Notes under the pieces: generated by a model | Told to the model about the DNA's origin: nothing | The model's database searches: none | The model's input: only the letters and a program-made list of their open reading frames with translations | Made by a program: the position numbers and the translations under genes | Shown: in pieces, positions 1 through 12,715 of the stretch | Layout of the letters: each line of letters starts with the position of its first letter | How positions within the stretch are numbered: the stretch's first letter is position 1 | DNA from: an uncultured Eggerthellaceae bacterium | Lineage (GTDB): Bacteria > Actinomycetota > Coriobacteriia > Coriobacteriales > Eggerthellaceae | Direction: 5' to 3' | DNA length: 32,377 nucleotides | Assembly: GCA_964642255.1 (NCBI GenBank) | Contig: CAZXOF010000002.1 | Span: 1 to 32,377, forward strand

Positions 1-1367
1 TCCCAACGCTCGCACCACACAATAGGCCCGTGCGCAACATAAGACATCTCGTTGACGCCTTCAGAAATATGACGCAACAGCGTTGGCATGATGGTAGGAT
101 CATTATTAGCAAAAGCATCCCAATCAAAAAGTGCATATTCTTCGGCCGGCAAAAAACGTTCGAAATTGCCATTTACAATACAGCGAGCAATGTCACGATA
201 GAGCTGGCCGTAATTGCACCATAGCCCCAGATCATCCACGGTAGATCCCGTTACTTGATTCCATATCAGGTCGTCTTCGGTATTGTTCTCAAAAGGAACC
301 AAAGACCCAAGGACGTTTTTTGCATATCTAAAGGGGAAATTTCCAACACACGTATTACCCGTTGTCTCAAAACCGCCGTTTTCAGCACTTGCCGCAACTT
401 TGAGATCAGCATGACAGTGAATGGGGCAACCGTGGCAGCCATTCATTTTAATAGTGTACTTTTCAGCTTCAGGACCGTTATCCTTGGTGGACTTCATGCA
501 TCGATAGCCTACAGTATTGAGCTCGCCGGGCTTCGGCTCGCCAGTTTCAATAGCTCCGCCTTCCGCCGCAGCCCAATACAATCCGCTTTGCGCTGTCCAA
601 CGCGAAGATGAGTCATAGTATTCAGCCCATTCCTGCTGCGTTGACGGAACTACATGATTGTTGTTTGAGCCAATAATTTCGCGCAGCATGTAGTCGGAAA
701 GTTCGGCCACCGCATCGGGGTCGGCAACATTTACGCTACCGTTACCTTCAACGACAATGGCTTTGCACTTTTTTGAGCCCAACACAGCACCCACGCCAGC
801 ACCAGCAGAATGATTACGCGAATTGATGATACAGGCATAAGGAACCTGATTTTCACCTGCTGGACCTATGGTTGCTACACAAGCGCGCACGCCTTCAATG
901 CGCGAAAGTGTTTCAGAAGTTGCACGGGTACCGCTGCCCCATACAAAGCTTGCATCTTTAATTTGAACATCATCGTCTTTGATATTGATATAAACCGGCG
1001 TATCGCTTGCACCCTCCACAATCAACGCGTCATAACCGGCCTGCTTCAACTGCGCCCCAAACATACCACCACAGTGTGCATCCACTACTAAATGGTCAGT
1101 TGTATAGGTAGAGAGGGAACAGATGGTTGTACGACCCGCCAAAGGAACACCTGATGCAGTAAGCGGACCAACTGCAAAGACAACCTTATTTTCCTCGGAG
1201 AGAGGATCAGTTCCTGCGGGTACCTCATCATACATAATCTTATTCGCGATACCCATGCCGCCAATATATTCTTTGTAAGGCTCAGTCGCTTCGGTGGTGA
1301 TAGAGCCGCTTGTCAAATTGACGCGCAGCATCTTTCCTGCCCAACCGTATGACGTTGTATCAGCCAT
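1..1367 (-). CDS. Aldehyde:ferredoxin oxidoreductase (AOR) family tungstopterin/[4Fe-4S] enzyme, N-terminal ~455 codons only (gene continues past the left window edge)
   Basis: My translation of the minus strand from ATG (cat at 1365-1367) gives MADTTSYGWAGKMLRVNLTSGSITTEATEPYKEYIGGMGIANKIMYDEVPAGTDPLSEENKVVFAVGPLT...IGPAGENQVPYA...NHSAGAGVGAVLGSKKCKAIVVEG...MNGCHGCPIHCH. This is open to position 1. It fits the AOR N-terminal domain and the CxxCxxxC cluster motif. GGAG lies about 10 nt upstream of the ATG. It is missing from the ORF track because no stop falls inside the window. Confidence 0.85.
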   Translation of the reverse strand, partial: MADTTSYGWAGKMLRVNLTSGSITTEATEPYKEYIGGMGIANKIMYDEVPAGTDPLSEENKVVFAVGPLTASGVPLAGRTTICSLSTYTTDHLVVDAHCGGMFGAQLKQAGYDALIVEGASDTPVYINIKDDDVQIKDASFVWGSGTRATSETLSRIEGVRACVATIGPAGENQVPYACIINSRNHSAGAGVGAVLGSKKCKAIVVEGNGSVNVADPDAVAELSDYMLREIIGSNNNHVVPSTQQEWAEYYDSSSRWTAQSGLYWAAAEGGAIETGEPKPGELNTVGYRCMKSTKDNGPEAEKYTIKMNGCHGCPIHCHADLKVAASAENGGFETTGNTCVGNFPFRYAKNVLGSLVPFENNTEDDLIWNQVTGSTVDDLGLWCNYGQLYRDIARCIVNGNFERFLPAEEYALFDWDAFANNDPTIMPTLLRHISEGVNEMSYVAHGPIVWCERW

Positions 1368-1755
1368 AGCTCTTTCTCCACATTCTCTCGTCTTTCACGG
1401 AATTGCACATCACGGGAACAACCGGGAATGTGGGTGGCTTTTGTGACAATTAGTATGGCTATTCAAGGCTTCACCACCCTACCTTGTTTTGAGGGAATCT
1501 CCGAAAAATCGCTGGTGAGCGCGTGATACCCCCGAAAGAGGGTACGCCTTTTATATAGATACACGCACACTGCGACTATTGCGCATCACCTACATTGAGG
1601 GAACTGATCGGAAGGAGAATCGCGACACGCGTTTGTAACGCACGTCATTGGAGGTATGGGGTTACACACAACCTAAATGAGCACGAGACATGTCGCGAGA
1701 GTGGCTCTATACAGGACAAGCAAGCTCACCGATCTGTTGAGGGGGGTTTAAGAAC

Positions 1756-2568
1756 ATGTCGGACAAAAATGTAAACGGCGACATTCCTGTCGAGAAGCCT
1801 ATAAACAACGCTTCTGCAGCGAATCCGTCCACACAGACTTATACATCTACAACCGACGACGTTGCGACCGCTTCCTCCGGCGAAACAAATTCATTTGCGC
1901 CAGAGCCAAGAAGGTTACCGCAAAAAAAGAGCACGATCACACGCCGCCATGTATTAGCTTTAGCTGGGTGCGGCGTGTCTGGACTTGTTGTTGGCGGCTT
2001 AGTATCCACATGGGGTGTTACCCAGGCCTCTATCGCCTCTGGGCGTATCGAGATACGAACAACTCCATCGCACATGATCGTCACCGATCGCGCGCGCTGC
2101 TCAGGCTGTCAGCGCTGCGAAATGGCCTGCACACTAAAAAACGATGGCCGTGTATGCCAACATATTGCTCGTGTGCGAGTACGTGATAACTACGCTTTTG
2201 GTGTAAGCGCTGATACCGGTGACGGCGTGTTTGGCAGTTGTGAGTTTACCGTTGAGCATTGCAAGCAGTGCGCCGATCCGTGGTGTATGAACTACTGCCC
2301 AGTACATGCAATTTATGCCGATGAGAAATCCGGTGCCCGCACAGTTGATACCGACCGATGCATTGGCTGCGGCATGTGCTCGCAGGCCTGCCCGTGGAAC
2401 ATGCCACGCATCGATACCGAAACAGGCGTTTCAACCAAGTGTATTTCCTGCGGTCGTTGCGCTGCACAATGTCCCAACGGTGCCATTCAATTCATCGACT
2501 GGCAGGATATCGCCCAAACGGTTATTGACCAGGGTGTGGTGCGCACAACAACGCTCGTGTCTACCTAA
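1756..2568 (+). CDS. Tat-signal-bearing 4x[4Fe-4S] ferredoxin (DmsB/NrfC/HybA-like electron-transfer subunit) with a long low-complexity N-region
   Basis: Four Cys clusters are present: CSGCQRCEMAC, CKQCADPWCMNYCP, CIGCGMCSQACP, CISCGRCAAQCP. The twin-arginine motif TRRHVLALAG is followed by a hydrophobic stretch and ASIAS. A G-rich SD (gagggggg) lies ~9 nt upstream of the ATG at 1756. Confidence 0.8.
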   Translation: MSDKNVNGDIPVEKPINNASAANPSTQTYTSTTDDVATASSGETNSFAPEPRRLPQKKSTITRRHVLALAGCGVSGLVVGGLVSTWGVTQASIASGRIEIRTTPSHMIVTDRARCSGCQRCEMACTLKNDGRVCQHIARVRVRDNYAFGVSADTGDGVFGSCEFTVEHCKQCADPWCMNYCPVHAIYADEKSGARTVDTDRCIGCGMCSQACPWNMPRIDTETGVSTKCISCGRCAAQCPNGAIQFIDWQDIAQTVIDQGVVRTTTLVST

Positions 2569-2618
2569 GCAGCGACACAGCGAAAGCACAAGCATGTTGA
2601 TGAGAGGCATGAGAGGAC

Positions 2619-3413
2619 ATGGGACAAAGCACAGTCATATATACAGGTGAGAAAACATGTAGCACAACCGGTGATGCAGCAGTGTTCTCAATTATTTCTC
2701 GATGTTTCACAAACACAAGTCGCGAGGAATGGGAACAGCTAACAACTGGTTTTATGTGGGCAGACTTCCTAGATGACGTGCGTGGTCTTACCCAAACAGG
2801 ACGCAGGCTTGGTGATATCGAACGCCCTATCGAACGATTAAAACCTCAACGTCCGCTACAAGATGCACTTTCCAATCAAGAGGTTGGCGCACTTTTTACG
2901 CCACCTACTTACGAGGAGAAATGTAGTTTTGCAGCGCGACATTTTACTGGGGGACTACCGGAATCAGCTATGCCTGTGGAGTCGCTTTATGTGGAATGGC
3001 AACCCGATATACATGGAGAGACCTTGTTTTCTCGAGCAAAAGGGTTCTACCTTGCCAATACAGCGACATACATGGCCGACATGATAGAAGCGGTTGGTGG
3101 CAGCATACCGTCTGCCTTTTCTGCCTGTCCGGATCACCTTTCCCTCGAGCTTGATTTTGCGGCTGTTTTATTGCGGTCGTTTTTGGTGGCAGAAGCTCAG
3201 CAGTTCATTGTTGAACGTCTTGCATGGCTGACCGCCTATCGTATGAAGCTACTCTCACTCCATGACGATGCAAGCTTTTACATAGCCCTTGTTGATGTGC
3301 TTATCGCTGTTCGCGAACAGCAGGCGGGAGAACTTGATGAATCGACCCGGCTCGCAGCGAACGTCGTCGCCACGAGCGGCACATATCAGAGAGGAAAGAG
3401 CAATGTTGGATAA
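2619..3413 (+). CDS. TorD/DmsD/NarJ-family redox-enzyme maturation chaperone
   Basis: It sits immediately upstream of, and overlaps by 11 nt, a Tat-dependent molybdoenzyme gene. The CPDHLSLELDFAAVLL segment resembles the conserved (E/P)DH..(L)EL.F motif of the family. Size is ~264 aa. There is no signal peptide. Confidence 0.7.
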   Translation: MGQSTVIYTGEKTCSTTGDAAVFSIISRCFTNTSREEWEQLTTGFMWADFLDDVRGLTQTGRRLGDIERPIERLKPQRPLQDALSNQEVGALFTPPTYEEKCSFAARHFTGGLPESAMPVESLYVEWQPDIHGETLFSRAKGFYLANTATYMADMIEAVGGSIPSAFSACPDHLSLELDFAAVLLRSFLVAEAQQFIVERLAWLTAYRMKLLSLHDDASFYIALVDVLIAVREQQAGELDESTRLAANVVATSGTYQRGKSNVG

Positions 3414-5604
3414 TGCTCTCACAAGGAGAAGCTTCATAGCGGGCGCTACAGGCGTCACTGCTGCTGCCGCAGCAGCAGGCTATGTCGGTTTCGGGGCGTG
3501 GAACGAAGCGCACGCAGAAGATGAGAAAACATCTTCTGAGACGAAGAGTATCCACACAACCTGCAATGCATGCTCCAATAAATGCGGATTCACGGCATAT
3601 GTCGTGAATGGCAAACTTGGTAAATTGATTGGCGATGAGAACCATCCATACGCACAAGGAAAGCTGTGTGCGCGCGGATACGGATATTCTCAGATCGCTT
3701 ATTCCGAAGATCGCTTGACCGATCCGCTTCGCAAAAATGATCAGGGAGAATTTGAGGCCATTACCTGGGAAGAGGCAATTTCTGAGATTGCCGAGCGCCT
3801 TACCTCCATCATTAATTCAGACGGAGCCGATGCGGTAGCGCTAGTACAAGATCCACGACCCGCAGGTTCGTACTACACTCAGCGTTTCATGAACGCCATC
3901 GGGTCGCCCAACTTCTATACACATGGCGCGGCGTGTAATCTGTCGAAAGTTTCTGGTCTTACACAAGTCATTGGCACAGGTGACTATTACAGCGACGTCG
4001 AAAACTCACAGATGACTATGTTTATTGGTCGCAGCTATGCCGACGGGATACGCCCCAGTGCACTGGCCGAAATACAACGTGCACACGAAAACGGATCGAA
4101 AATTGTAATTGTCGATCCACGCTGCAACAATACATCACGCTTTGCCGATGAGTGGATTCCGATCAACCCCGGCACCGACCTTGCCTTTGTTTTGGCAATG
4201 GCCAACGTGCTTATCAAAAGCAATCGTTATGATGCAACCTATCTTGCCGAAAATGCCGTCGGTTTCGAAGAATGGGCCGAGGCTATTTCGTCGTATACGC
4301 CTGATTGGGCAGAAAGTATCACAGGTATTGAGTCAACCACCATTGAGCGCTTAGCCTTGGAGATGTGGAACGCAGCTCCTGCAGCTTCCATTGACCCAAG
4401 TTGGCGTGGTGCATTTGGATGCGCATACTCAAATTCAGGCGAAACAGCACGTGCTATAGGATGCTTCAATAGCCTGCTGGGATGCTGGAATCAAAAAGGC
4501 GGCGCACTATTTTTGCCCAGCGTGTCAGCCGGAACACTTGATGCAACGGCATTTCCTAGTGTACCAACTCCAAAAGGCACCAAGATTGGCGCAACAGAAT
4601 ACCCACTTGCATCATCAAGTATGGGTGTAAATCTGGCAGCAGCTCAAGCAGCTGCTGAAGGTACGCTCAAGGCTATGTTCTTTTACAACTCAAACATGGT
4701 AGCGGGGTATTCAAATCCCGAGTATTTAGCTGAAGCGCTTAGCAATTTGGATCTATGTGTAGTAATTGATGTACAGCTTACTGAGACTGGTCAAGTAGCT
4801 GACTATGTATTGCCCGAGTGCAGCTATCTTGAAAGATCGGAGCTACCCGAATTTATAAGCGGAAAGATTCCAAGCGTAACGCTACGTAACCAAGTGCTTG
4901 ACCGCATCCATTCAAACACGCGCACCTGCGCTGAAATATTTACCGATTTAGCTGAGGCTTGTGATGTAGGTGAATACTTCCCCTTCACAATTGAAGAGTT
5001 GGCAGAAGCTCAGCTTGAAAGCGTGGGGCTATCGGTTGATGCTGTAGCACAAACAGGAACTGTGTATTTTTCCGATCATGCATTCACGTACGGCACTACG
5101 CCTACGTGGAATACATCCAGTGGCAAGATTCAGTTTACAAGCGCGGCATGCGAAAGCGCAGGTTATACCGCTACGCCTACATGGGTTGAGCCGACGGTTA
5201 TGCCTGATGGCAATCAATTGCGGCTTATTGGCGGAAAGCAAGCCATCCATAGTCACACTATGACAGCAAATATTGCCGAGCTTATGGCAATTACCGAGCA
5301 ATACGACCTTGAGCGCGTATGGATAAACGCAGATGTCGCTGAAGAACTTGGCATCTCTGACGGCGACGAAATAGAGGTCTCAAACGACTACCATGAGGGA
5401 ACAATTTGTGCAAAAGTGACGCAACGCATCAATCCAACAGCACTATTTATACCCAGCCATTACGGTTGCACCGTACCTGAACAAACAAATGCGTACGGCA
5501 TTGGTCTGCGTCAAATGGACTACGTTCCCTTCCGCATCGAACCGGGTTACGGCGGTGCCTGTACACAGGAAACGACCGTCACGGTGAAGAAAGCAGGTGC
5601 GTGA
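3403..5604 (+). CDS. Molybdopterin (bis-PGD) oxidoreductase catalytic subunit, Tat-exported, PsrA/PhsA-like size class (733 aa); substrate unknown
   Basis: I chose the ATG at 3403, preceded by gaggaaagag, which gives MLDNALTRRSFIAGATGV (a Tat motif). The FS0 motif is CNACSNKC...(27)...C. A candidate Mo-ligand Cys lies in THGAACNLS (tgt 3934-3936). The C-terminal Molydop-binding-like domain reads RLIGGKQAIHSHT...GISDGDEIEV. The track ORF start at 3289 overlaps the chaperone gene and lacks an SD. Confidence 0.9.
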   Translation: MLDNALTRRSFIAGATGVTAAAAAAGYVGFGAWNEAHAEDEKTSSETKSIHTTCNACSNKCGFTAYVVNGKLGKLIGDENHPYAQGKLCARGYGYSQIAYSEDRLTDPLRKNDQGEFEAITWEEAISEIAERLTSIINSDGADAVALVQDPRPAGSYYTQRFMNAIGSPNFYTHGAACNLSKVSGLTQVIGTGDYYSDVENSQMTMFIGRSYADGIRPSALAEIQRAHENGSKIVIVDPRCNNTSRFADEWIPINPGTDLAFVLAMANVLIKSNRYDATYLAENAVGFEEWAEAISSYTPDWAESITGIESTTIERLALEMWNAAPAASIDPSWRGAFGCAYSNSGETARAIGCFNSLLGCWNQKGGALFLPSVSAGTLDATAFPSVPTPKGTKIGATEYPLASSSMGVNLAAAQAAAEGTLKAMFFYNSNMVAGYSNPEYLAEALSNLDLCVVIDVQLTETGQVADYVLPECSYLERSELPEFISGKIPSVTLRNQVLDRIHSNTRTCAEIFTDLAEACDVGEYFPFTIEELAEAQLESVGLSVDAVAQTGTVYFSDHAFTYGTTPTWNTSSGKIQFTSAACESAGYTATPTWVEPTVMPDGNQLRLIGGKQAIHSHTMTANIAELMAITEQYDLERVWINADVAEELGISDGDEIEVSNDYHEGTICAKVTQRINPTALFIPSHYGCTVPEQTNAYGIGLRQMDYVPFRIEPGYGGACTQETTVTVKKAGA

Positions 5605-6146
5605 TGGCGCGATACGGAATGCTTATAAACACAAAGAAATGCGTGGGGTGTTATGCCTGTCGTACGGCGTGCCAACGGCAGAATAACCTGTTACCCACTC
5701 AAGATTTTATCCGCTATGAAGAAACAGAAACGGGTACCTACCCAACAGTGAGCTATGAGGTGGTTCCCATCCAATGCATGCATTGTGAAGATGCCCCGTG
5801 TGTTGCAGTATGCCCCACCGGAGCCGCCTTCTTCGGAACAGACGGCATTGTGGGCGTAGATGAAGGGCGCTGTATAGGATGCAAGTACTGCATGGCAGCT
5901 TGCCCCTATCAGGTACGCGTTCAGAACTCCGAAACAGGCACGGTGGATAAATGTCGCTTCTGCACGGTTTCTGCCGAGCAAACAGGCACGAAGATGTGCA
6001 CGTGCGTCGAGGCTTGCCTCACCGGTGCCCGACTCTTCGGCGACCTCGATGATCCTGACAGCGAAATCTCTCGCGAGATTATCGCAACAGGCGCCCAACC
6101 GCTGAAGGGCGATTTAACCAAAGCAAAAGTCTATTATGTGAGGTGA
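5604..6146 (+). CDS. 4Fe-4S cluster electron-transfer subunit (DmsB/PsrB/NrfC family), no signal peptide (Tat hitch-hiker type)
   Basis: The sequence MARYGMLINTKKCVGCYACRTAC, CMHCEDAPCVAVCP, CIGCKYCMAACP, CRFC...C..AC is typical of the family. The ATG at 5604 overlaps the upstream TGA (TGATG), suggesting translational coupling. The track start at 5601 is a GTG one codon upstream. Confidence 0.9.
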   Translation: MARYGMLINTKKCVGCYACRTACQRQNNLLPTQDFIRYEETETGTYPTVSYEVVPIQCMHCEDAPCVAVCPTGAAFFGTDGIVGVDEGRCIGCKYCMAACPYQVRVQNSETGTVDKCRFCTVSAEQTGTKMCTCVEACLTGARLFGDLDDPDSEISREIIATGAQPLKGDLTKAKVYYVR

Positions 6147-6152
6147 GCGGCG

Positions 6153-7046
6153 ATGTCTTTCGAACCCATCTGGGGTGCCATCATCGCGTGGTACTTATTT
6201 TTAGCAGGCTTGGGCGGTGGTGCATTCACAGCCTCCGCGTTTTTGAAGTGGAGACATCCCGAAGCCGTGTGCATGCGCAAAATTGGACATCTTATAGCTC
6301 CCATTGTCGTCATCATTGGCTTGGTGCTGCTTATGTTCGACGCCGAGGCTGGTTTGCATAACCCCTTGCGCTTTGCGTTACTGCTTACAAACTTCGGTTC
6401 CGTTATGACTTGGGGTGTGGTATTTCTTGCCGGTTTTGTGATTGTGGCGCTTGTTGTGGTGATACTCAATTCCACGAAGCGTCCTGTACCTATATGGCTT
6501 GATATAGCAGGCGTGCTCTTTGCACTATGTGTTGCAATGTATACGGGTGCCCTCTTGGGGGTTTGCAAAACCTTCCCCTTGTGGAATACCGCACTTTTGC
6601 CTATCCTCTTTCTTGTTTCGGCAATGTCTGCAGGCATGTCGAGTGTGTTACTTGTATCTATCATTCGTCATCCCGAGGAGTTCAATCGCGTTAGCGTGTT
6701 TAAGAAGTTTCACTTCTGCCTCCCTATTATCGAGATTGTATTGGTAGCATCCTTGCTGTTCATTACTGCGTCCAACTCGACAGCTGGCTATAATTCAGTG
6801 ATGAGCTTACTTGTGGGTGACTATGCCCCGCTGTTCTGGATAGGTTTAATTGTTATAGGTCTTGTGCTGCCAACTGCGTTTGAAACATGGTTGCTGTTCT
6901 TCAGCCCAAAGGAATTTGAAGAAAGTCACAAAGCACATACCATTAGCCTTGTCTCTGATGTAGGGGTCCTTATAGGCGGCTTCTTGCTTCGCTACCTTAT
7001 TGTAGTCGCCGCACTGCCTATTACCATGGTTGTCGCAGCAACCTAA
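6153..7046 (+). CDS. NrfD/PsrC-family integral membrane quinol-interacting anchor subunit
   Basis: The N-terminus WGAIIAWYLFLAGLGGGAF is typical of NrfD/DmsC/PsrC. About 8 hydrophobic segments are present. It is the last gene of the operon, starting 6 nt after the FeS subunit stop. Confidence 0.85.
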   Translation: MSFEPIWGAIIAWYLFLAGLGGGAFTASAFLKWRHPEAVCMRKIGHLIAPIVVIIGLVLLMFDAEAGLHNPLRFALLLTNFGSVMTWGVVFLAGFVIVALVVVILNSTKRPVPIWLDIAGVLFALCVAMYTGALLGVCKTFPLWNTALLPILFLVSAMSAGMSSVLLVSIIRHPEEFNRVSVFKKFHFCLPIIEIVLVASLLFITASNSTAGYNSVMSLLVGDYAPLFWIGLIVIGLVLPTAFETWLLFFSPKEFEESHKAHTISLVSDVGVLIGGFLLRYLIVVAALPITMVVAAT

Positions 7047-7079
7047 CACTACTATGTCACCACATTTCTCCACGTCTAC

Positions 7080-7117
7080 GGTAGAGTGACTTGCAGAACC
7101 TTGTGATTCACTCTACC
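7080..7117 (+). terminator. Stem-loop downstream of the oxidoreductase operon (10-bp perfect stem, no U-tract)
   Basis: ggtagagtga (7080-7089) pairs perfectly with tcactctacc (7108-7117), 34 nt after the stop at 7046. No T-run follows, so this is an I-shaped/actinobacterial-type terminator at best. Confidence 0.4.
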
Positions 7118-7328
7118 ACCGCTAATACACCAACTACACGACACAAAGAAACGATGTTTTTATTCAGAGAAGCTCCTCGCAGCAAGCAGCACTGACTGTT
7201 AGCTGTAAGTAGCTTCTCATTGTATTGAGACGCCTTATTGGTCCATACTGCATGAGTGGCTACTGGCACACTTTGTCCAAACACCTAACATCACGCTTAT
7301 TTGTACAAGTAGTCCTAGACGACACACA

Positions 7329-8231
7329 TCAAACACTAATACTTTGGGCCATTAAGGTATCCGCCAAAGTTCCTCCGTTGTTGCGATAAGCGCGTGGGGT
7401 TATGCCGTAGGCACGCTGAAATACACGACTAAAATAACTTTGCTGAGCAAAACCGCAAGCTTGTGCAATGCTTGCCACAGAATCCGATGTAGTACGCAAC
7501 AAGGTAGCAGCACATTCAAGTCGATAATCAATAAGATAGCTAACCGGTGAGTGTCCTGTATAGCGCTTAAAGAGTCGCGCACAGGTACTTTTACTTACGC
7601 TACCTCCATGCGCAATATCTTTAAGCTGAATGTTCTCAGAATAATGTTGACGAATAAAGCTGATCATGTGCTTGACCAACTCAACATCAGCACTAATAGG
7701 ATCAACGCCTGCCCCACGCTCTTCTAAAGCGCAATACAACTCTCGAAGAATCCGTAAACAGAGCGATACAACTTCTAGTTCAAAGGCTCGTGGCTGATCA
7801 CATATTAGTCGGTCGATCTCATCAATAGCTTCACGAATACGCACTGTATTCATATGATAACCAGGAAGTATAACATGCCTGAAGGAGGGATCCTGTAGTA
7901 CGGGATACACATATGCGTTAAAGAGCACTGGATCTGACACAAGTTTATCGGCATACATAACCAAAGTCAGTCCTCTGCCTTCTTCTTCGCATGTCACCGA
8001 TCCTGCTAAACGGTGCAGTTGTTGGCAGTTGATGAAGCAAAGATCACCTTTTCCCAAGGTAAATATACGATGGTTTGCTTGGCAACACAATTGCCCATGG
8101 GTCACGCTGACCACCTCAATGGCATCATGCCAGTGAGTCAATTCACTTGCAGAAAAGGGGTGAGTAGAGTCTTTTTGCTCTACGACAACAGGCAAGGCAA
8201 CAGCAGATTGCTTGATCGTAGCGTCTACCAT
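7329..8231 (-). CDS. AraC-family transcriptional regulator (N-terminal cupin-type sensing domain plus C-terminal dual HTH)
   Basis: The C-terminus reads IQLKDIAHGGSVSKSTCARLFKRYTGHSPVSYLIDYRLECAATLLRTTSDSVASIAQACGFAQQSYFSRVFQRAYGITPRAYR, the canonical AraC HTH pair. An SD (aaaggaa) lies 5 nt before the ATG at 8231. Confidence 0.9.
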   Translation of the reverse strand: MVDATIKQSAVALPVVVEQKDSTHPFSASELTHWHDAIEVVSVTHGQLCCQANHRIFTLGKGDLCFINCQQLHRLAGSVTCEEEGRGLTLVMYADKLVSDPVLFNAYVYPVLQDPSFRHVILPGYHMNTVRIREAIDEIDRLICDQPRAFELEVVSLCLRILRELYCALEERGAGVDPISADVELVKHMISFIRQHYSENIQLKDIAHGGSVSKSTCARLFKRYTGHSPVSYLIDYRLECAATLLRTTSDSVASIAQACGFAQQSYFSRVFQRAYGITPRAYRNNGGTLADTLMAQSISV

Positions 8232-8295
8232 GACAATTCCTTTTGTAGGTTGACATTGTCTTTATGATAAGATAGTGCTAAAAGATGACATAAAA

Positions 8296-8323
8296 GTGAT
8301 AGTAATATAACCTTTATTATAAT
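8296..8323 (+). promoter_or_regulatory. Candidate sigma70-type promoter for dps (GTGATA-16-TATAAT) embedded in the 10-bp palindrome TATTATAATA
   Basis: The -35-like gtgata is at 8296-8301 and the -10 tataat at 8318-8323, about 58 nt upstream of the dps ATG. The palindrome tattataata spans 8316-8325. Confidence 0.35.
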
Positions 8324-8381
8324 ATAGTACAAAATGTCAGGAATGACGAGAGGAATCGCCCACAAGAGAAGGAGCTTACCC

Positions 8382-8807
8382 ATGGAGAGCAAGCTAAATT
8401 CATTTCTTTCTAATCTAGTTGTTGAGTACCATAAACTACAAAGTTTTCATTGGTACGTCAAAGGAAGTGATTTCTTCCAGGCACATGCTAAACTTGAAGA
8501 ATATTACGACGAAATTCGTGACATGATTGACGATGTAGCCGAACTCATGCTAATGGAAGGGCTACATCCTGTATCGAAACTGAGCGAGTTTTTAGCACTA
8601 ACCCAGATACAAGAGGCCTCCGGCACATTTGAGACCTCGCAAGCAGTGTTTGAAACAGTGCTGAGTGACTACCGCTCACTGCTGACCGAGTCCATCGAGA
8701 TCAAACGTGCGGCAGAAGAATCTGGTCGTGACTTGGTTGCTGCCAAAGCAGACGGCTATATCGAGGTATTCTCGAAAGCTCTTTGGATGATCGGACAGAG
8801 TCGTTAA
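8382..8807 (+). CDS. dps: Dps (DNA protection during starvation) ferritin-like protein
   Basis: MESKLNSFLSNLVVEYHKLQSFHWYVKGSDFFQAHAKLEEYYDEIRDMIDDVAELML is the classic Dps signature (HW.V.G..F...H..(F/L)EE.Y). The ATG at 8382 has agaaggag 7 nt upstream. The track start at 8334 has no SD. Confidence 0.9.
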   Translation: MESKLNSFLSNLVVEYHKLQSFHWYVKGSDFFQAHAKLEEYYDEIRDMIDDVAELMLMEGLHPVSKLSEFLALTQIQEASGTFETSQAVFETVLSDYRSLLTESIEIKRAAEESGRDLVAAKADGYIEVFSKALWMIGQSR

Positions 8808-8912
8808 TCACAAGTAATCTTTACTCTGTTATAGAAACATGCGTTGTTCACGTTACGAGTGTCGTAATAGATTAACCGTCTTTGTACCATATGCTCATCT
8901 ACTCTGATGGCA

Positions 8913-8949
8913 AAGCCCTCCGTTCCGGATCATCGAGAACAGAGGGCTT
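8913..8949. terminator. Hairpin between convergent dps and glnN (possible bidirectional terminator)
   Basis: aagccctc (8913-8920) pairs with gagggctt (8942-8949). The stem extends inward by 4 more bp (gttc/gaac) after one mismatch. No clear U-tract is present on either strand. Confidence 0.4.
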
Positions 8950-9043
8950 ACATTTAACTTACAATCAAGGGATACGTTCTGATCTGTTTTACGTTTCGCT
9001 CAAAAATACACGCGGAACTAAACAATTGCTTCCACTAAAAACA

Positions 9044-11134
9044 TTACACGTAAAAGAGCAGGTTATTATAACTTGGTACCGGCCAATAATCGCGACTAGT
9101 AATAACCTCCATTGCATCAACCGCAGCACGAAGAGCATCCATGACCGGAATTATGGTATGTGCGTTATAACTTGCACGTTGCTGTTCATCGTTCATGGCC
9201 TCGGCTTCATGACTAAGCTTCTCAAGTTTATCAAGTTGTTGTTTAATCTCGGTCATACCATCAAGCAATTTTGCAAGCAGCTCTTCTTGTACAGAAGTAT
9301 TAGCATCGGAAAGAGCACTCTTACAGGACACAACCCCTTCAGCAATTGCAGACGCATACGCATTAATAGCCGGCAAATATGTGCGACGTACCATACGACG
9401 CATAACACGACCCTCAATATTGATGAGCTTGTTATATTTTTCAACCTCAACTTCGTAGCGGCTGTGCACCTCGGTTTCTGACAGCACGCCCATTTCCTCA
9501 AACAAATCAATGCTTTTTTGCTCAATGAAGCTTGGCAGTGCGTCAGCAGTAGTACGATGGTTTTCAAGCCCCCGCCTTTGTGCTTCTACGGTCCACTCTT
9601 CGGCATAGCCGTTACCGTTAAAGATAATACGCCGATGATCATGTAAGGTTTGCTTGATGTAGGTAATAGTAGCCGATTCAAATTCGGAACCTGTTTTACC
9701 TTCCATAGCATCAGCAAAGCTTTTGAGACTCTTGGCAACAGCGGTGTTCAAAATCATATTGGCATCTGAAAGGTTCACGTTAGAACCCGGCATACGGAAC
9801 TCAAATTTATTGCCTGTAAAAGCAAAGGGACTTGTACGATTGCGGTCGGTGTTGTCCTTTAAGAAGTTCGGCAGCACATCAACACCTAAATCCATAGACA
9901 CACGCGCAGCACTGTGATAGTCGCTATCTCCTACAAGTGCATCCACAATGGCGCCCAGTTCATCGCCCAAAAAGATAGAGATAATAGCTGGTGGTGCCTC
10001 GTTTGCGCCAAGGCGATGATCATTGCCTGCAGAAGCAACCGATGCGCGTAGTAGTCCTTGGTAGTTGTCAACCGCTTCAATAACCGCAGTCAAAAACACT
10101 AAAAAGCGCAGATTATCGACCGGATCATCACCGGGATCAAGTAGATTCTTTTTACCCGCTGAAATAGACCAATTATTATGCTTGCCCGAACCGTTAATTC
10201 CTTCAAAAGGCTTTTCATGCAGCAGACACACCAGTTTATAGTGTGAAGCAAGCAGACGCATCGCTTCCATGGTCAGCAGATTTTCATCAACAGCTCGATT
10301 AGCCGTTTCAAAAATAGGCGCTAGCTCATGCTGAGCAGGCGCAACTTCGTTGTGCTTCGTTTTGGCCGGCACACCAAGCTTCCACAGCTCGCTATCAAGC
10401 TCTTTCATAAACTCGTTAACTGTTGGACGAATCGCACCGAAATAATGCTCTTCAAGCTCTTGACCCTTGCATGGTGCATACCCAAACAAGGTGCGCCCCG
10501 TTAGTACTAGGTCTTCGCGACGTTCATACTCTTTTTCAGGAATAAGAAAAAACTCCTGTTCGGCACCAACTGTCGTCATTATATGCTGACGTTCCTCACC
10601 AAACAGCGCAAGTACGCGATTCGTCTGCTCTCCAATAGCATTCATCGAACGCAAAAGCGGTGTTTTCTTGTCAAGCGCCTCACCAGTATAGCTACAAAAC
10701 GCCGTGGGAATACACAGTACTTCATCTTTAATGAAGGCAAAACTCGTTGGATCCCATGCGGTGTAGCCACGCGCCTCAAAGGTTGCACGCAAACCGCCCG
10801 AAGGGAAACTTGATGCATCTGGCTCACCTTGAATGAGCTCCTTGCCCGAAAAGCTCATAATTGCGCGACCATCGGATGTAGGATCAATAAAGCCGTCATG
10901 CTTCTCTGAGGTTACGCTTGAAAGTGGTTGAAACCAGTGAGCATAATGCGTGGCACCCTTTTCGATGGCCCACTCCTTCATGGCATGAGCAACAATGTTT
11001 GCAACCTCTGGATCCAGCGGCTCGCCATCGTGAATCGTTTTGAGTAGCTTCTTATAGGTTGCAGAGGGAAGTCGCTCCTGCATTGTATGTTCATTAAATA
11101 CCATCGAACCATAAATTTCAGACACCTGCGCCAT
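9044..11134 (-). CDS. glnN: Glutamine synthetase type III (GSIII, ~696 aa)
   Basis: The N-terminus MAQVSEIYGSMVFNEHTMQERLPSATYKKLLKTI...THYAHWFQPLSSVTSEKHDGFIDP and the ~700 aa length are typical of GSIII (Bacteroides/cyanobacterial GlnN type). The ATG at 11134 has gaaggag ~8 nt upstream. The track start at 11158 is a GTG without an SD. Confidence 0.9.
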   Translation of the reverse strand: MAQVSEIYGSMVFNEHTMQERLPSATYKKLLKTIHDGEPLDPEVANIVAHAMKEWAIEKGATHYAHWFQPLSSVTSEKHDGFIDPTSDGRAIMSFSGKELIQGEPDASSFPSGGLRATFEARGYTAWDPTSFAFIKDEVLCIPTAFCSYTGEALDKKTPLLRSMNAIGEQTNRVLALFGEERQHIMTTVGAEQEFFLIPEKEYERREDLVLTGRTLFGYAPCKGQELEEHYFGAIRPTVNEFMKELDSELWKLGVPAKTKHNEVAPAQHELAPIFETANRAVDENLLTMEAMRLLASHYKLVCLLHEKPFEGINGSGKHNNWSISAGKKNLLDPGDDPVDNLRFLVFLTAVIEAVDNYQGLLRASVASAGNDHRLGANEAPPAIISIFLGDELGAIVDALVGDSDYHSAARVSMDLGVDVLPNFLKDNTDRNRTSPFAFTGNKFEFRMPGSNVNLSDANMILNTAVAKSLKSFADAMEGKTGSEFESATITYIKQTLHDHRRIIFNGNGYAEEWTVEAQRRGLENHRTTADALPSFIEQKSIDLFEEMGVLSETEVHSRYEVEVEKYNKLINIEGRVMRRMVRRTYLPAINAYASAIAEGVVSCKSALSDANTSVQEELLAKLLDGMTEIKQQLDKLEKLSHEAEAMNDEQQRASYNAHTIIPVMDALRAAVDAMEVITSRDYWPVPSYNNLLFYV

Positions 11135-11200
11135 TGTTTGAATCTCCTTCTCCCTCACATGCCGCCTGCAGTAGCTACTACCTTGTCACCCTGCATTTGT

Positions 11201-11222
11201 TAACAGATATACAAATCTGTTA
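11201..11222. promoter_or_regulatory. Perfect 8-6-8 inverted repeat TAACAGAT-N6-ATCTGTTA upstream of glnN (candidate operator or leader hairpin)
   Basis: taacagat (11201-11208) and atctgtta (11215-11222) are exact reverse complements. The repeat sits 67-88 nt upstream of the glnN ATG. Confidence 0.35.
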
Positions 11223-11320
11223 TTAAAATAAGCCTTTTACTAACACCATGCTATTGCAGCATAACGTTATCAATCTATTTCGTAACACTATTACACGTAT
11301 GATGCCCTTATAAACACACA

Positions 11321-11347
11321 AGACCCGCCGAGCTTATCGACGGGTCT
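11321..11347 (-). terminator. Rho-independent-like terminator after rpsI
   Basis: On the minus strand, the stem AGACCCG...CGGGTCT (11347-11321) is followed by TGTGTGTTTAT. It lies 84 nt downstream of the rpsI stop. Confidence 0.5.
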
Positions 11348-11430
11348 CGCTGATATGGTGCACACTATAGCGCAATCCACATAAATACCCTGCCGCCATG
11401 TCGTATTCCATCAGCAGCAGTATGCCTCTT

Positions 11431-11823
11431 TTAGCGCTTCGAGAATTGCGGACGCTTGCGAGCCTTTTTCAGACCGTACTTCTTACGCTCGACCACACGA
11501 GCATCTCGCGTCAGATAGCCTGCTTTCTTGAGCTCAGGACGATACTCACCCGCCTCAAGCAACGCACGAGCAATACCGTGACGCAACGCGCCTGCCTGCC
11601 CTGCAATACCACCGCCATTCAAGCGAGCGATCACATCAAAATGCCCTACGGTATCGGTCACTTTAAACGGAGCTTTCGCGTAATCAACAAGAGCCTCGCG
11701 ACCGAAATATTCAGCAGCCTCACGACCATTAACCGTTACTTTACCGGTACCAGGCACAAGGCGAACCCGTGCTACAGCATTTTTGCGCCGACCAGTACCG
11801 TAATATAGAGCCTTATCTGCCAT
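11431..11823 (-). CDS. rpsI: 30S ribosomal protein S9
   Basis: [34 protein letters not shown]...[12 protein letters not shown] is the canonical S9 sequence. It lies 3 nt downstream of rplM. Confidence 0.97.
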
Positions 11824-11826
11824 CTA

Positions 11827-12261
11827 CTATCCCTCCAGCTTGATCTCGCGGGGCTTCTGAGCCGCATGCGGATGGTCGGAACCGGCGTACACCTTGAGCT
11901 TCATACCCATTTTGCGGCCAAGTGTCCCTTTCGGTAACATGCCCTTAACAGCATACTCAATAACACGTTCAGGATGCTTTTTAATGGCCTCTTCGAAGGT
12001 TTCTGATTTCAAGCCACCCGGATATCCACTGTGGTGGTAGTAGATTTTCTGAGAAGCCTTTGCACCTGAAAGCTGCACCTTTTCAGCATTGATAACAATA
12101 ATGTAGTCGCCAGTATCAACATGAGGGGTGTAGTGTGGTTTGTGCTTACCCCGCAGCATATGGGCAGCTTTGCTCGCTAAACGCCCAAGCACTTGATCGG
12201 TAGCATCAATGACAAACCACTCGCGCTCAACCTCATTGGGCTTTGCGTGATATGTTTTCAC
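11827..12261 (-). CDS. rplM: 50S ribosomal protein L13
   Basis: (V/M)[29 protein letters not shown] is the canonical L13 sequence. The GTG at 12261 is preceded by GGAGG with a 7-nt spacer, giving 144 aa. The track ATG at 12291 adds 10 non-conserved residues and lies upstream of that SD. Confidence 0.93.
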
Positions 12262-12715
12262 TCTTTGTCCTCCATTAAGTTGTTCCTGCATTTCCGCTGA
12301 AGCAGGCGGATACAGGGCTGTCGTTTTTCAAAAGTGCAGTTCACCCGGACGTTGACTTCCCACGCCAACACGCCTCTGCGATCCTGGACTCTCGCTTGTG
12401 CGTTTCCGACCTTCTGCGTTCACGGGGCTTTTGAAAGCGAACTTCTGCATTTTCGCGCGCATAAAAAAGAAAGTCAACGAGCAATTTGAAGAGTGCAGAC
12501 TATATGGATACTCGATTGATCGCATTTGCAACCAATCGATATCGCCTCGCTCATACCATAACATGCCGTTTCTATCTTTAGGTTTCAGCTTCGATTTAGA
12601 ATGAACAGTGCTTATTGGCGCCCCATTAAGGTCAAAAGCATTCTTACCCGAGCTTGTGCGCTGCCGGTCGCTTATTCAGCAGTGGGGTCGCACCATCGTG
12701 CCAAGAATACCCGTG

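What the first reader, a model, noticed from the sequence alone, without database searches (positions are those of the whole stretch)
1756..7046. Tat-exported PsrABC-like molybdoenzyme locus of unknown substrate with an additional, independently Tat-targeted tetra-cluster ferredoxin
Five co-directional, tightly spaced or overlapping genes are present:
- a Tat-ferredoxin with four [4Fe-4S] motifs;
- a TorD-like chaperone with an 11-nt overlap into the next gene;
- a 733-aa bis-PGD catalytic subunit with Tat signal TRRSFIAG, FS0 motif CNACSNKC..C and a candidate Cys ligand at tgt 3934-3936;
- a signal-less DmsB/PsrB-type FeS subunit (TGATG overlap);
- an NrfD/PsrC membrane anchor.

Canonical Psr/Phs/Ttr/Dms systems need only A, B and C. 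A second four-cluster protein with its own Tat signal implies either a longer extracytoplasmic electron wire (NrfC/HybA-like) or a branch to another partner. The short catalytic subunit with a Cys-type ligand position resembles polysulfide, thiosulfate or arsenate reductases rather than DmsA. Coriobacteriia-type gut anaerobes are known to use expanded DMSO-reductase-family enzymes on organic, drug and dietary substrates, so the substrate cannot be inferred. The convergent AraC-family regulator with a cupin sensor domain (7329-8231) is the obvious candidate inducer sensor.
Basis: partly seen in the sequence, partly recalled or inferred. Interest (0 to 1): 0.6.

Follow-up and report, generated by a model that had tools for sequence, protein, structure and literature searches.

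The report
Membrane-linked tungsten/molybdenum enzyme locus, function unknown
The five genes are real, but the "extra" ferredoxin is the small subunit of the aldehyde-oxidoreductase-type enzyme encoded back-to-back with it, which makes this locus one more copy of a recently catalogued gut-bacterial respiratory module whose substrate is still unknown.

Summary
All five + strand genes exist as described: a Tat ferredoxin, a TorD-like chaperone, a PsrA-like catalytic subunit with a Cys ligand, a PsrB-like FeS subunit and an NrfD anchor.

The interpretation needs correcting. ORF1 passes the NCBIfam equivalog for E. coli YdhY. It is 42% identical to YdhY and resembles the solved AOR small subunits (AorA, WOR5-S) more than PsrB. 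Its conserved partner is the divergent YdhV-type AOR gene at 3-1367(-).
- In five sampled genomes of a sister family in the same order (probably Collinsella-type), ferredoxin and AOR sit together with a Cgr1-like cytochrome c and no Psr genes.
- PsrABC-like paralogues occur without the ferredoxin.
- In the Eggerthellaceae genomes sampled, 58 of 121 carry the ferredoxin. Every locus inspected on a long enough contig shows AOR | ferredoxin-[TorD]-A-B-C.
- The A subunit varies from 25 to 82% identity. The other four parts are better conserved.

A 2026 paper (PMC13328260) already defines this as "Class V WOR" and notes that the Coriobacteria form has a transmembrane subunit plus an unknown pyranopterin subunit. 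No function has been assigned. The AraC gene is not a conserved neighbour, whereas a LuxR-type regulator is.

Verdict: a new member of a known but uncharacterised kind. The scan had noted the AOR on this same window before.

The parts
3..1367 (-). N-terminal 455 aa of a YdhV-type aldehyde-ferredoxin-oxidoreductase-family large subunit (WorL). It has no signal peptide. The gene is cut by the contig end and probably continues on contig C27.
   Evidence: AFOR_N scores 228.9 bits. NF007354 (YdhV-type) scores 653.5 bits over model positions 3-452 of 703. It is 53% identical to E. coli YdhV. Full-length orthologues score 957-1090 bits against a cut-off of 868. It is the only AFOR_N gene in the assembly. 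C27 overlaps it by 81 nt at 98% identity and carries the C-terminal part.
1368..1755 (.). Divergent intergenic region shared by the AOR gene and the ferredoxin operon. It is presumably the common control region.
   Evidence: Position only. No consensus sigma-70 promoter was called here. I did not analyse it further.
1756..2568 (+). WorS/YdhY-type subunit with four [4Fe-4S] clusters and a Tat signal or signal-anchor. It is the small subunit of the AOR and its probable export carrier.
   Evidence: NF007382 scores 218.8 bits against a cut-off of 213. It is 42% identical to E. coli YdhY, E 5e-56. In the PDB it matches AorA 8c0z_C (72 bits) and WOR5-S 6x1o_B (65 bits) better than PsrB (42 bits). 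The TRR motif plus hydrophobic stretch is conserved across orthologues, while the N-terminal extension varies. In the sister family it sits directly upstream of the AOR with no Psr genes nearby.
2619..3413 (+). TorD/DmsD/NarJ-family chaperone, presumably for the Tat-dependent bis-PGD subunit A.
   Evidence: PF02613 scores 24.6 bits against a cut-off of 22.2. The NCBIfam TorD model scores 30 bits, below its cut-off. It is present in type-1 loci and missing where A is of another subtype.
3403..5604 (+). PsrA/PhsA-like Mo/W-bis-PGD catalytic subunit with a Tat signal, an FS0 cluster and the Cys178 ligand.
   Evidence: T. thermophilus PsrA, 277 bits, aligned over residues 44-731. The key motifs are conserved. 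Orthologues are 56-82% identical across Eggerthellaceae.
5604..6146 (+). PsrB/NrfC-type four-cluster FeS subunit without a signal peptide. It is probably co-exported with A.
   Evidence: PsrB 2vpw_B scores 143 bits, far above AorA at 44 bits. NrfC, DsrO and TtrB models also match. Its best E. coli matches lie at 4289910-4290389 (46%; I take this to be nrfC from my memory of the K-12 map) and at YdhX (42%).
6153..7046 (+). NrfD/PsrC-type integral membrane anchor, the presumed quinone/quinol site.
   Evidence: PF03916 NrfD scores 120 bits over residues 6-288. It is conserved at 46-83% identity in all related loci.

Best explanation
The locus is the Eggerthellaceae version of a Class V (clade 41, YdhV/YdhY-type) tungsten/molybdenum oxidoreductase module. 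This is an enzyme system attached to the outer face of the cell membrane.

What each part most likely does:
- ORF1 is the four-cluster small subunit (WorS/YdhY) of the AOR-family large subunit encoded divergently at 3-1367(-).
- ORF1's twin-arginine signal most likely carries the signal-less AOR across the membrane.
- The PsrA-like subunit A has its own Tat signal and a TorD-like chaperone. It likewise carries the signal-less FeS subunit B.
- The NrfD protein C links the system to the menaquinone pool.

Shown here: the family assignments, the conserved synteny, and the conserved Tat motifs, FS0 motif and Cys178.

Inferred:
- AOR-WorS docks on the B-C module. B-C would then play the role that YdhX-YdhU play in E. 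coli and a Cgr1-like cytochrome c plays in the sister family (probably Collinsella-type).
- The unit would therefore have two pyranopterin catalytic heads on one anchor.
- A would be a Cys-ligated reductase of a polysulfide- or thiosulfate-like substrate.

The substrates and the direction of electron flow remain unknown.
For: ORF1 belongs with the AOR:
- ORF1 passes the YdhY equivalog and is 42% identical to YdhY. The AOR is 53% identical to YdhV.
- Full-length AOR orthologues pass the YdhV-type cut-off.
- ORF1 matches the solved AOR small subunits better than PsrB. B shows the reverse pattern.

The parts are modular:
- In five genomes of a sister family, ferredoxin, AOR and a Cgr1-like cytochrome c follow one another. 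No A, B or C gene lies within about 10 kb where the contig allows.
- A-B-C paralogues exist without the ferredoxin (L012-14 second copies, L046, L056, L098, L099).

The layout is conserved:
- 58 of 121 sampled Eggerthellaceae genomes carry the ferredoxin.
- Every locus inspected on a long enough contig shows AOR | ferredoxin-[TorD]-A-B-C. For the remaining genomes, the adjacency of ferredoxin and A was read from hit coordinates.
- The TRR motif is conserved in the ferredoxin orthologues.
- TatC is present in the assembly.
- A YdhW-like domain is encoded nearby.

Literature: PMC13328260 describes Class V WORs and the Coriobacteria composition.
Against: - No physical or expression evidence links the AOR-ferredoxin pair to A-B-C. 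No RNA run was listed, and multimer modelling was not available.
- The AOR gene is on the opposite strand from its small subunit. This is unusual for subunits of one enzyme.
- B is closer to the E. coli gene at 4289910-4290389 (46%; I take it to be nrfC) than to YdhX (42%). B is therefore not a specific YdhX orthologue.
- C is not related to YdhU.
- The only Class V large subunit tested biochemically oxidised none of 46 aldehydes (PMC13328260). The chemistry of the AOR head is therefore open.
- The junction between contig C27 and the window rests on an 81-nt overlap at 98% identity plus synteny.
Confidence: 0.68

Rival explanations
1. There are two separate, co-regulated enzymes. One is an extracytoplasmic AOR-WorS heterodimer, tethered by the uncleaved N-terminal helix of WorS and using a soluble or unknown partner. 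The other is an ordinary PsrABC-type quinol-dependent reductase. They are adjacent for shared regulation or shared cofactor supply, not because they form one complex.
For: Both units occur on their own elsewhere. B pairs with A as in classical PsrAB. The hydrophobic stretch of WorS is about 24 residues long, which is long enough for a membrane anchor.
Against: In E. coli and in the sister family the AOR-WorS pair is always encoded with its own quinone-pool module. No such module other than B-C was seen near the Eggerthellaceae pair. The ferredoxin stays glued to A-B-C even where A has diverged to 25-40% identity.
Confidence: 0.22
2. ORF1 is a fourth redox subunit of the PsrABC-like enzyme, acting as a longer extracytoplasmic wire unrelated to the neighbouring AOR.
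For: ORF1 lies on the same strand, 50 nt upstream of the TorD-like gene, with no terminator called between them. It is always immediately upstream of an A-type gene in Eggerthellaceae.
Against: ORF1 is a YdhY equivalog. It resembles AOR small subunits more than PsrB. It pairs with an AOR and no Psr genes in the sister family and in E. coli. Tandem and dispersed A-B-C paralogues lack it.
Confidence: 0.07
3. Subunit A is a cofactor-less, QrcB-like scaffold and Tat carrier for B. The AOR would then be the only catalytic head.
For: The QrcB model aligns over the full length of A at 178.9 bits. In other ferredoxin-linked loci, the A subunits lack the Cys ligand and the TorD-like gene. In one of them QrcB is the top model. 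L101 carries a shortened A of roughly 480 aa.
Against: In this window, A keeps FS0, Cys178 and a dedicated TorD-like chaperone, and all are conserved in its orthogroup. PhsA (412.8 bits) far outscores QrcB.
Confidence: 0.05

Closest known systems
Class V WORs (clade 41), as defined in PMC13328260 (Front Microbiol 2026), including the E. coli YdhYVWXUT system
   Same: It has a YdhV-type large subunit, a YdhY-type four-cluster small subunit with a Tat signal, a YdhW-like domain encoded nearby, an additional NrfC/YdhX-like FeS protein and a membrane subunit. The paper explicitly notes that Coriobacteria have a transmembrane subunit plus an unknown pyranopterin subunit. No function has been assigned.
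   Different: The anchor is NrfD-type, not the YdhU-type putative cytochrome. B has no signal peptide of its own and rides on a PsrA-like subunit that E. coli lacks. No YdhT was found. The AOR gene is divergent from its small subunit rather than downstream of it. The YdhW-like domain is fused to a NifU_N domain.
Polysulfide/thiosulfate reductase PsrABC/PhsABC (T. thermophilus PsrABC, PDB 2VPW-2VPZ)
   Same: A, B and C match PsrA (277 bits), PsrB (143 bits) and the NrfD family. A has a Tat signal, and Cys178 aligns with PsrA Cys173. B has four clusters.
   Different: A is below the PhsA equivalog cut-off (412.8 against 694). The locus always carries an AOR plus WorS as well. The substrate has not been tested.
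AOR enzymes with polyferredoxin small subunits (Aromatoleum AorABC, PDB 8C0Z; Pyrococcus WOR5, PDB 6X1O)
   Same: An AOR-family large subunit is paired with a four-cluster ferredoxin-like small subunit. ORF1 aligns with AorA and WOR5-S over its whole ferredoxin domain.
   Different: From my own knowledge, those enzymes are cytoplasmic and use ferredoxin or NAD. Here the small subunit has a Tat signal and the genes sit with a membrane module.
Sister-family (probably Collinsella-type) ferredoxin-AOR-cytochrome c locus (L088-L092)
   Same: It has orthologous WorS (43% identical, Tat motif TRRGFVKV) and WorL (60-72% identical).
   Different: The genes are co-directional. A Cgr1-like multihaem cytochrome c follows instead of A-B-C.

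Membership tests
Class V WOR (clade 41, YdhV/YdhY type) | The large subunit belongs to the YdhV-type AOR lineage | tested here: met
   The window fragment scores 653.5 bits on NF007354 over model positions 3-452 of 703. Full-length orthologues 60-77% identical to it score 957-1090 bits against a cut-off of 868. It is 53% identical to E. coli YdhV. I did not redo the placement in the paper's own tree.
Class V WOR (clade 41, YdhV/YdhY type) | [quoted passage not shown] | tested here: met
   NF007382 scores 218.8 bits against 213. Four Cys motifs are present. TRRHVL plus a hydrophobic stretch is conserved in orthologues.
Class V WOR (clade 41, YdhV/YdhY type) | At least one further, membrane-associated subunit belongs to the enzyme | tested here: inconclusive
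   The NrfD, PsrB-like and PsrA-like genes are adjacent in every inspected locus with enough contig. Physical association cannot be tested with these tools.
E. coli YdhYVWXUT system | The full gene set Y, V, W, X, U, T is present | tested here: not met
   Y, V, X-like and W-like parts are present. No match to YdhU or YdhT was found. B is closer to the E. coli gene at 4289910-4290389, which I take to be nrfC, than to YdhX.
PsrABC/PhsABC polysulfide/thiosulfate reductase | Catalytic subunit with a Tat signal, FS0 and a Cys metal ligand; four-cluster B; NrfD-type C | tested here: met
PsrABC/PhsABC polysulfide/thiosulfate reductase | Equivalog-level similarity to characterised PhsA | tested here: not met
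   NF012032 scores 412.8 bits against a cut-off of 694.
PsrABC/PhsABC polysulfide/thiosulfate reductase | Polysulfide or thiosulfate reduction activity | not testable with these tools
   This needs an enzyme assay.
TorD/DmsD/NarJ chaperones | Match to the Nitrate_red_del family | tested here: met
   PF02613 scores 24.6 bits against a cut-off of 22.2. The NCBIfam TorD model scores only 30 bits against 132. The assignment is weak.

The most novel reading that the evidence does not exclude
The AOR-WorS pair and the PsrA-like/PsrB pair sit on one NrfD anchor as a two-headed extracytoplasmic complex. It would hold a W/Mo-bis-MPT site and a Mo/W-bis-PGD site wired through eight or more FeS clusters. 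Electrons from the AOR head could pass directly to an exchangeable, substrate-specific A head as well as to menaquinone. The 25-82% divergence of A on an otherwise conserved AOR/WorS/B/C scaffold would then reflect swapping of acceptor specificity on a constant donor module.
Probability: 0.3. Interest if true: 0.75.

Novelty: new member of a known kind. Interest (0 to 1): 0.42.

Why it matters
Class V WORs make up over 10% of the tungsten-oxidoreductase family, and none has an assigned activity (PMC13328260). The Eggerthellaceae form joins two different pyranopterin enzymes to one membrane anchor. It was found in about half of the family's sampled genomes, including very small ones such as this roughly 1.3-Mb assembly.

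Knowing that ORF1 belongs with the AOR changes how the locus should be studied. All six genes should be expressed and purified together, not PsrABC alone. The reassignment also identifies cultured hosts for such work (Gordonibacter, Paraeggerthella, Slackia, Cryptobacterium). The window itself adds only one more uncultured example.

Tried and rejected
I took genomic context from the search for related loci, the genome search and the fetch from genomes instead.
- The look-up of sequencing runs listed no RNA holder, so co-transcription of ORF1 with the downstream genes could not be tested.
- I did not build a phylogeny with characterised Psr, Phs, Ttr, Arr, Dms and catechol-dehydroxylase sequences, because no tool gave me those sequences as usable records. 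Scores against NCBIfam equivalogs and PDB chains served as a proxy.
I judged single-chain folds unnecessary.
- I rejected the idea that B is a specific YdhX orthologue. Its best E. coli match lies at 4289910-4290389, which I take to be nrfC.
- I rejected the AraC gene as a conserved regulator.
- The choice between W and Mo could not be settled. A ModA-type protein and a PBP_like_2 protein that could be TupA or PstS are both present.
- The trees are FastTree with midpoint rooting and long branches. I use them only as a hint that the A subunit was displaced in L094-L096.
- Literature searches for Eggerthella or Eggerthellaceae together with AOR or polysulfide reductase gave nothing beyond PMC13328260.
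Full report
**1. Observation**

The six-frame ORF list and the sequence itself confirm five co-directional genes:
- 1756-2568 (270 aa)
- 2619-3413 (264 aa)
- 3403-5604 (733 aa)
- 5601/5604-6146 (about 180 aa)
- 6153-7046 (297 aa)

Pfam and NCBIfam give these assignments:
- ORF1 has multiple 4Fe-4S domains.
- ORF2 matches Nitrate_red_del/TorD weakly (24.6 bits against a cut-off of 22.2).
- A has the Molybdop_Fe4S4, Molybdopterin and Molydop_binding domains.
- B is Fer4_11 and NrfC/PsrB-like.
- C is NrfD (120 bits).

The closest solved structure to A is Thermus thermophilus PsrA (2vpw_A, 277 bits, aligned over residues 44-731). I know from that structure, not from a tool, that this Cys is the Mo ligand. 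The Tat motif, the FS0 cysteines and Cys178 are conserved in all type-1 orthologues whose N-terminus was recovered. The assembly encodes TatC. No terminator-like site lies between ORF1 and ORF2.

**2. What ORF1 really is**

ORF1 passes the NCBIfam equivalog NF007382 (218.8 bits against a cut-off of 213). This is the model for E. coli YdhY.

This is the YdhV-type AOR model. The gene is cut by the contig end.

I fetched the E. coli K-12 ydhYVWXUT operon and compared the proteins with BLASTP:

| Window protein | E. coli protein | Identity |
|---|---|---|
| ORF1 | YdhY | 42% (E 5e-56) |
| AOR | YdhV | 53% (46% for the C-terminal piece on contig C27) |
| B | YdhX | 42% |
| C-terminal domain of a NifU_N-domain protein next to the AOR | YdhW | 26% (NF007411, 88.8 bits) |
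| C | YdhU | no match |

Nothing in the locus matched YdhT.

Against the PDB, ORF1 aligns best over its full ferredoxin domain with the AOR small subunits AorA (8c0z_C, 72 bits) and WOR5-S (6x1o_B, 65 bits). PsrB scores only 42 bits. B shows the reverse pattern, with PsrB at 143 bits and AorA at 44 bits. The two ferredoxins therefore belong to different lineages, and each matches a different catalytic partner.

Full-length AOR orthologues from relatives pass the YdhV-type cut-off (957-1090 bits against 868). The assembly has a single AFOR_N gene. Contig C27 overlaps the window start by 81 nt at 98% identity and carries the missing C-terminal part. Synteny in other genomes supports this join.

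**3. Comparative evidence on who partners with whom**

*Loci anchored on A.* search for related loci returned 54 loci, nearly all Eggerthellaceae: Raoultibacter, Paraeggerthella, Gordonibacter, Slackia, Senegalimassilia, Ellagibacter and Adlercreutzia. tblastn with the window's proteins shows the order AOR(-) | ORF1(+)-TorD-A-B-C in every locus with enough flank.

*Paralogues without ORF1 or an AOR.* Three loci (L012-L014) carry a second tandem TorD-A-B-C copy with no ORF1. L046 and L056 have A-B without ORF1 or an AOR nearby.

*Survey of the phylum.* A search with NF007382 found full-length YdhY-type hits (167-219 bits) only in the window's own family and in one other family of the same order. 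The next best hits scored 84 bits or less.

*The sister family.* Five genomes there show the order ORF1-like, AOR, then a 218-aa cytochrome c, all on one strand. No A, B or C homologue lies within about 10 kb where the contig allows. The cytochrome matches the Cgr1 model (98.5 bits). The 61-65% G+C and the genus list in the paper suggest these are Collinsella-type genomes. That identification is an inference.

*Conclusions so far.* ORF1-AOR exists without Psr genes, and Psr-like operons exist without ORF1. The conserved partner of ORF1 is therefore the AOR. The TRR motif followed by a hydrophobic stretch is conserved in ORF1 orthologues of both families, while the N-terminal extension before it varies in length. 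From my own knowledge, c-type cytochromes function outside the cytoplasm, so the sister-family arrangement also supports an extracytoplasmic location for the AOR-ORF1 pair.

**4. ORF1 is also tied to A-B-C in Eggerthellaceae**

In a sample of 121 genomes of the family, 58 carry an ORF1 orthologue.
- Comparing coordinates with the A-subunit survey, about 46 of the 58 have an A-type gene directly downstream at E ≤ 1e-150. This tally was made by eye.
- I fetched loci from six of the apparent exceptions. Seven of those eight loci show the same layout with a more divergent A (25-40% identical, or a shortened A of roughly 480 aa in L101). The eighth, L106, ends at its contig edge after the TorD-like gene.
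- The remaining exceptions sit at contig edges or in fragmented assemblies and were not inspected.

Identity to the window's proteins across these loci:

| Protein | Identity to the window's copy |
|---|---|
| AOR | 65-77% |
| ORF1 | 57-84% |
| B | 59-85% |
| C | 46-83% |
| A | 25-82% |

Only the window's A type keeps the Cys ligand. The other ORF1-linked A types have Ala, Ser, Thr, Asp or nothing recognisable at that position. They lack the TorD-like gene and score progressively lower on PhsA. In one of them QrcB is the top model.

FastTree trees place the B and C proteins of L094-L096 inside the main clade. Their A lies outside it on a long branch. This is weak evidence, and I use it only as a hint.

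**5. Literature**

PMC13328260 (Front Microbiol 2026) classifies the WOR family. It defines Class V as clade 41: WorL, a WorS with a Tat signal or transmembrane domain, and further membrane-associated subunits. It lists Eggerthella, Gordonibacter, Slackia and Collinsella among the hosts. [quoted passage not shown] Its supplementary genome table includes Cryptobacterium curtum.

No Class V enzyme has an assigned activity. The large subunit from C. somerae, expressed recombinantly, incorporated W preferentially and oxidised none of 46 aldehydes. Per that paper's citation of Reschke et al. 2019, E. coli YdhV prefers Mo.

The layout in the finding has therefore already been described bioinformatically. 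Two further literature searches added nothing specific.

**6. Mechanism**

*Shown.*
- The family identity of all parts.
- The conserved Tat motifs on ORF1 and A.
- The absence of signal peptides on the AOR and B.
- The conserved gene order.
- Three alternative membrane modules for the same WorL-WorS pair in three lineages: YdhX-YdhU in E. coli, a Cgr1-like cytochrome c in the sister family, and A-B-C in Eggerthellaceae.

*Inferred.*
- The AOR is exported by riding on ORF1, and B is exported by riding on A.
- The AOR-ORF1 pair uses the B-C module to reach the menaquinone pool.
- The unit therefore has two catalytic heads.

The main rival is two independent, co-regulated enzymes. B is closer to the E. 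coli gene at 4289910-4290389 (46%), which I take to be nrfC from my memory of the K-12 map, than to YdhX. So the analogy between B and YdhX is functional, and B is not a YdhX orthologue. The substrates, the direction of electron flow and the metal remain unknown. A ModA-type protein and a PBP_like_2 protein are both present.

**7. Regulation**

The AraC gene at 7329-8231 has no counterpart next to any of the 54 related loci. A LuxR-type regulator and the NifU_N/YdhW-like gene lie beyond the AOR in most genomes where the flank is available. The LuxR-type gene is the better candidate for the regulator.

**8. Verdict**

The locus is a new member of a known but functionally uncharacterised kind, the Coriobacteria form of Class V WOR.

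This analysis adds four points to the published description:
- ORF1 and the AOR are separable from A-B-C.
- The A subunit is highly variable on a conserved scaffold.
- The YdhW-like domain is fused to a NifU_N domain.
- The sister family uses a Cgr1-like cytochrome c in place of A-B-C.

**Limits**
- No RNA run was listed.

Noticed in passing
G000:C27 (L057) 914-2872, and loci L003-L055 beyond the AOR: A protein of roughly 650 aa has an N-terminal NifU_N domain and a C-terminal YdhW-like domain (NF007411, 88.8 bits). It is conserved next to the AOR in most Eggerthellaceae loci. Its orientation relative to the AOR differs between this assembly and most relatives. PMC13328260 reports that IscS co-purified with a recombinant Class V large subunit.
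   Followed up: partly
window 1-81 and G000:C27 1-81: The AOR gene is split by an assembly break. The two contig ends overlap by 81 nt with 2 mismatches. This could be strain variation or a repeat-induced break in the MAG.
   Followed up: partly
L094-L096, L102-L105, L107, L108, L101: In other Eggerthellaceae genera the A subunit downstream of the ferredoxin belongs to different subtypes (25-43% identical). These lack the Cys ligand and the TorD-like gene. L101 has a shortened A-like ORF of roughly 480 aa that still carries a Tat motif and FS0.
   Followed up: partly
G000:C28 (L098) 6943-12482: The same assembly has a second LuxR/A-B-C locus (A 37% identical) without a ferredoxin, AOR or TorD. 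It has no Cys at the ligand position.
   Followed up: partly
G000:C36 5351-7096: A molybdopterin-oxidoreductase frame with one in-frame TGA lies inside a 1072-aa open frame. It may be a selenocysteine formate dehydrogenase.
   Followed up: no
L088 7961-15111: In the sister family, the ferredoxin-AOR-cytochrome c genes are flanked by a radical-SAM gene upstream. Downstream lie a TSCPD-domain gene and a 421-aa ORF with no family match.
   Followed up: no
L012-L014, 12800-17300: A tandem duplicate of TorD-A-B-C (A 58-59% identical to the window's) lies directly downstream of the ferredoxin-linked copy. It has no second ferredoxin.
   Followed up: partly
Neither was found next to the related loci.
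   Followed up: no
window 1756-1947: About 60 polar residues precede the TRR motif of the ferredoxin, with no alternative in-frame start. Orthologues also carry extensions of variable length (about 17 to 90 residues before TRR) and unrelated sequence.
   Followed up: partly
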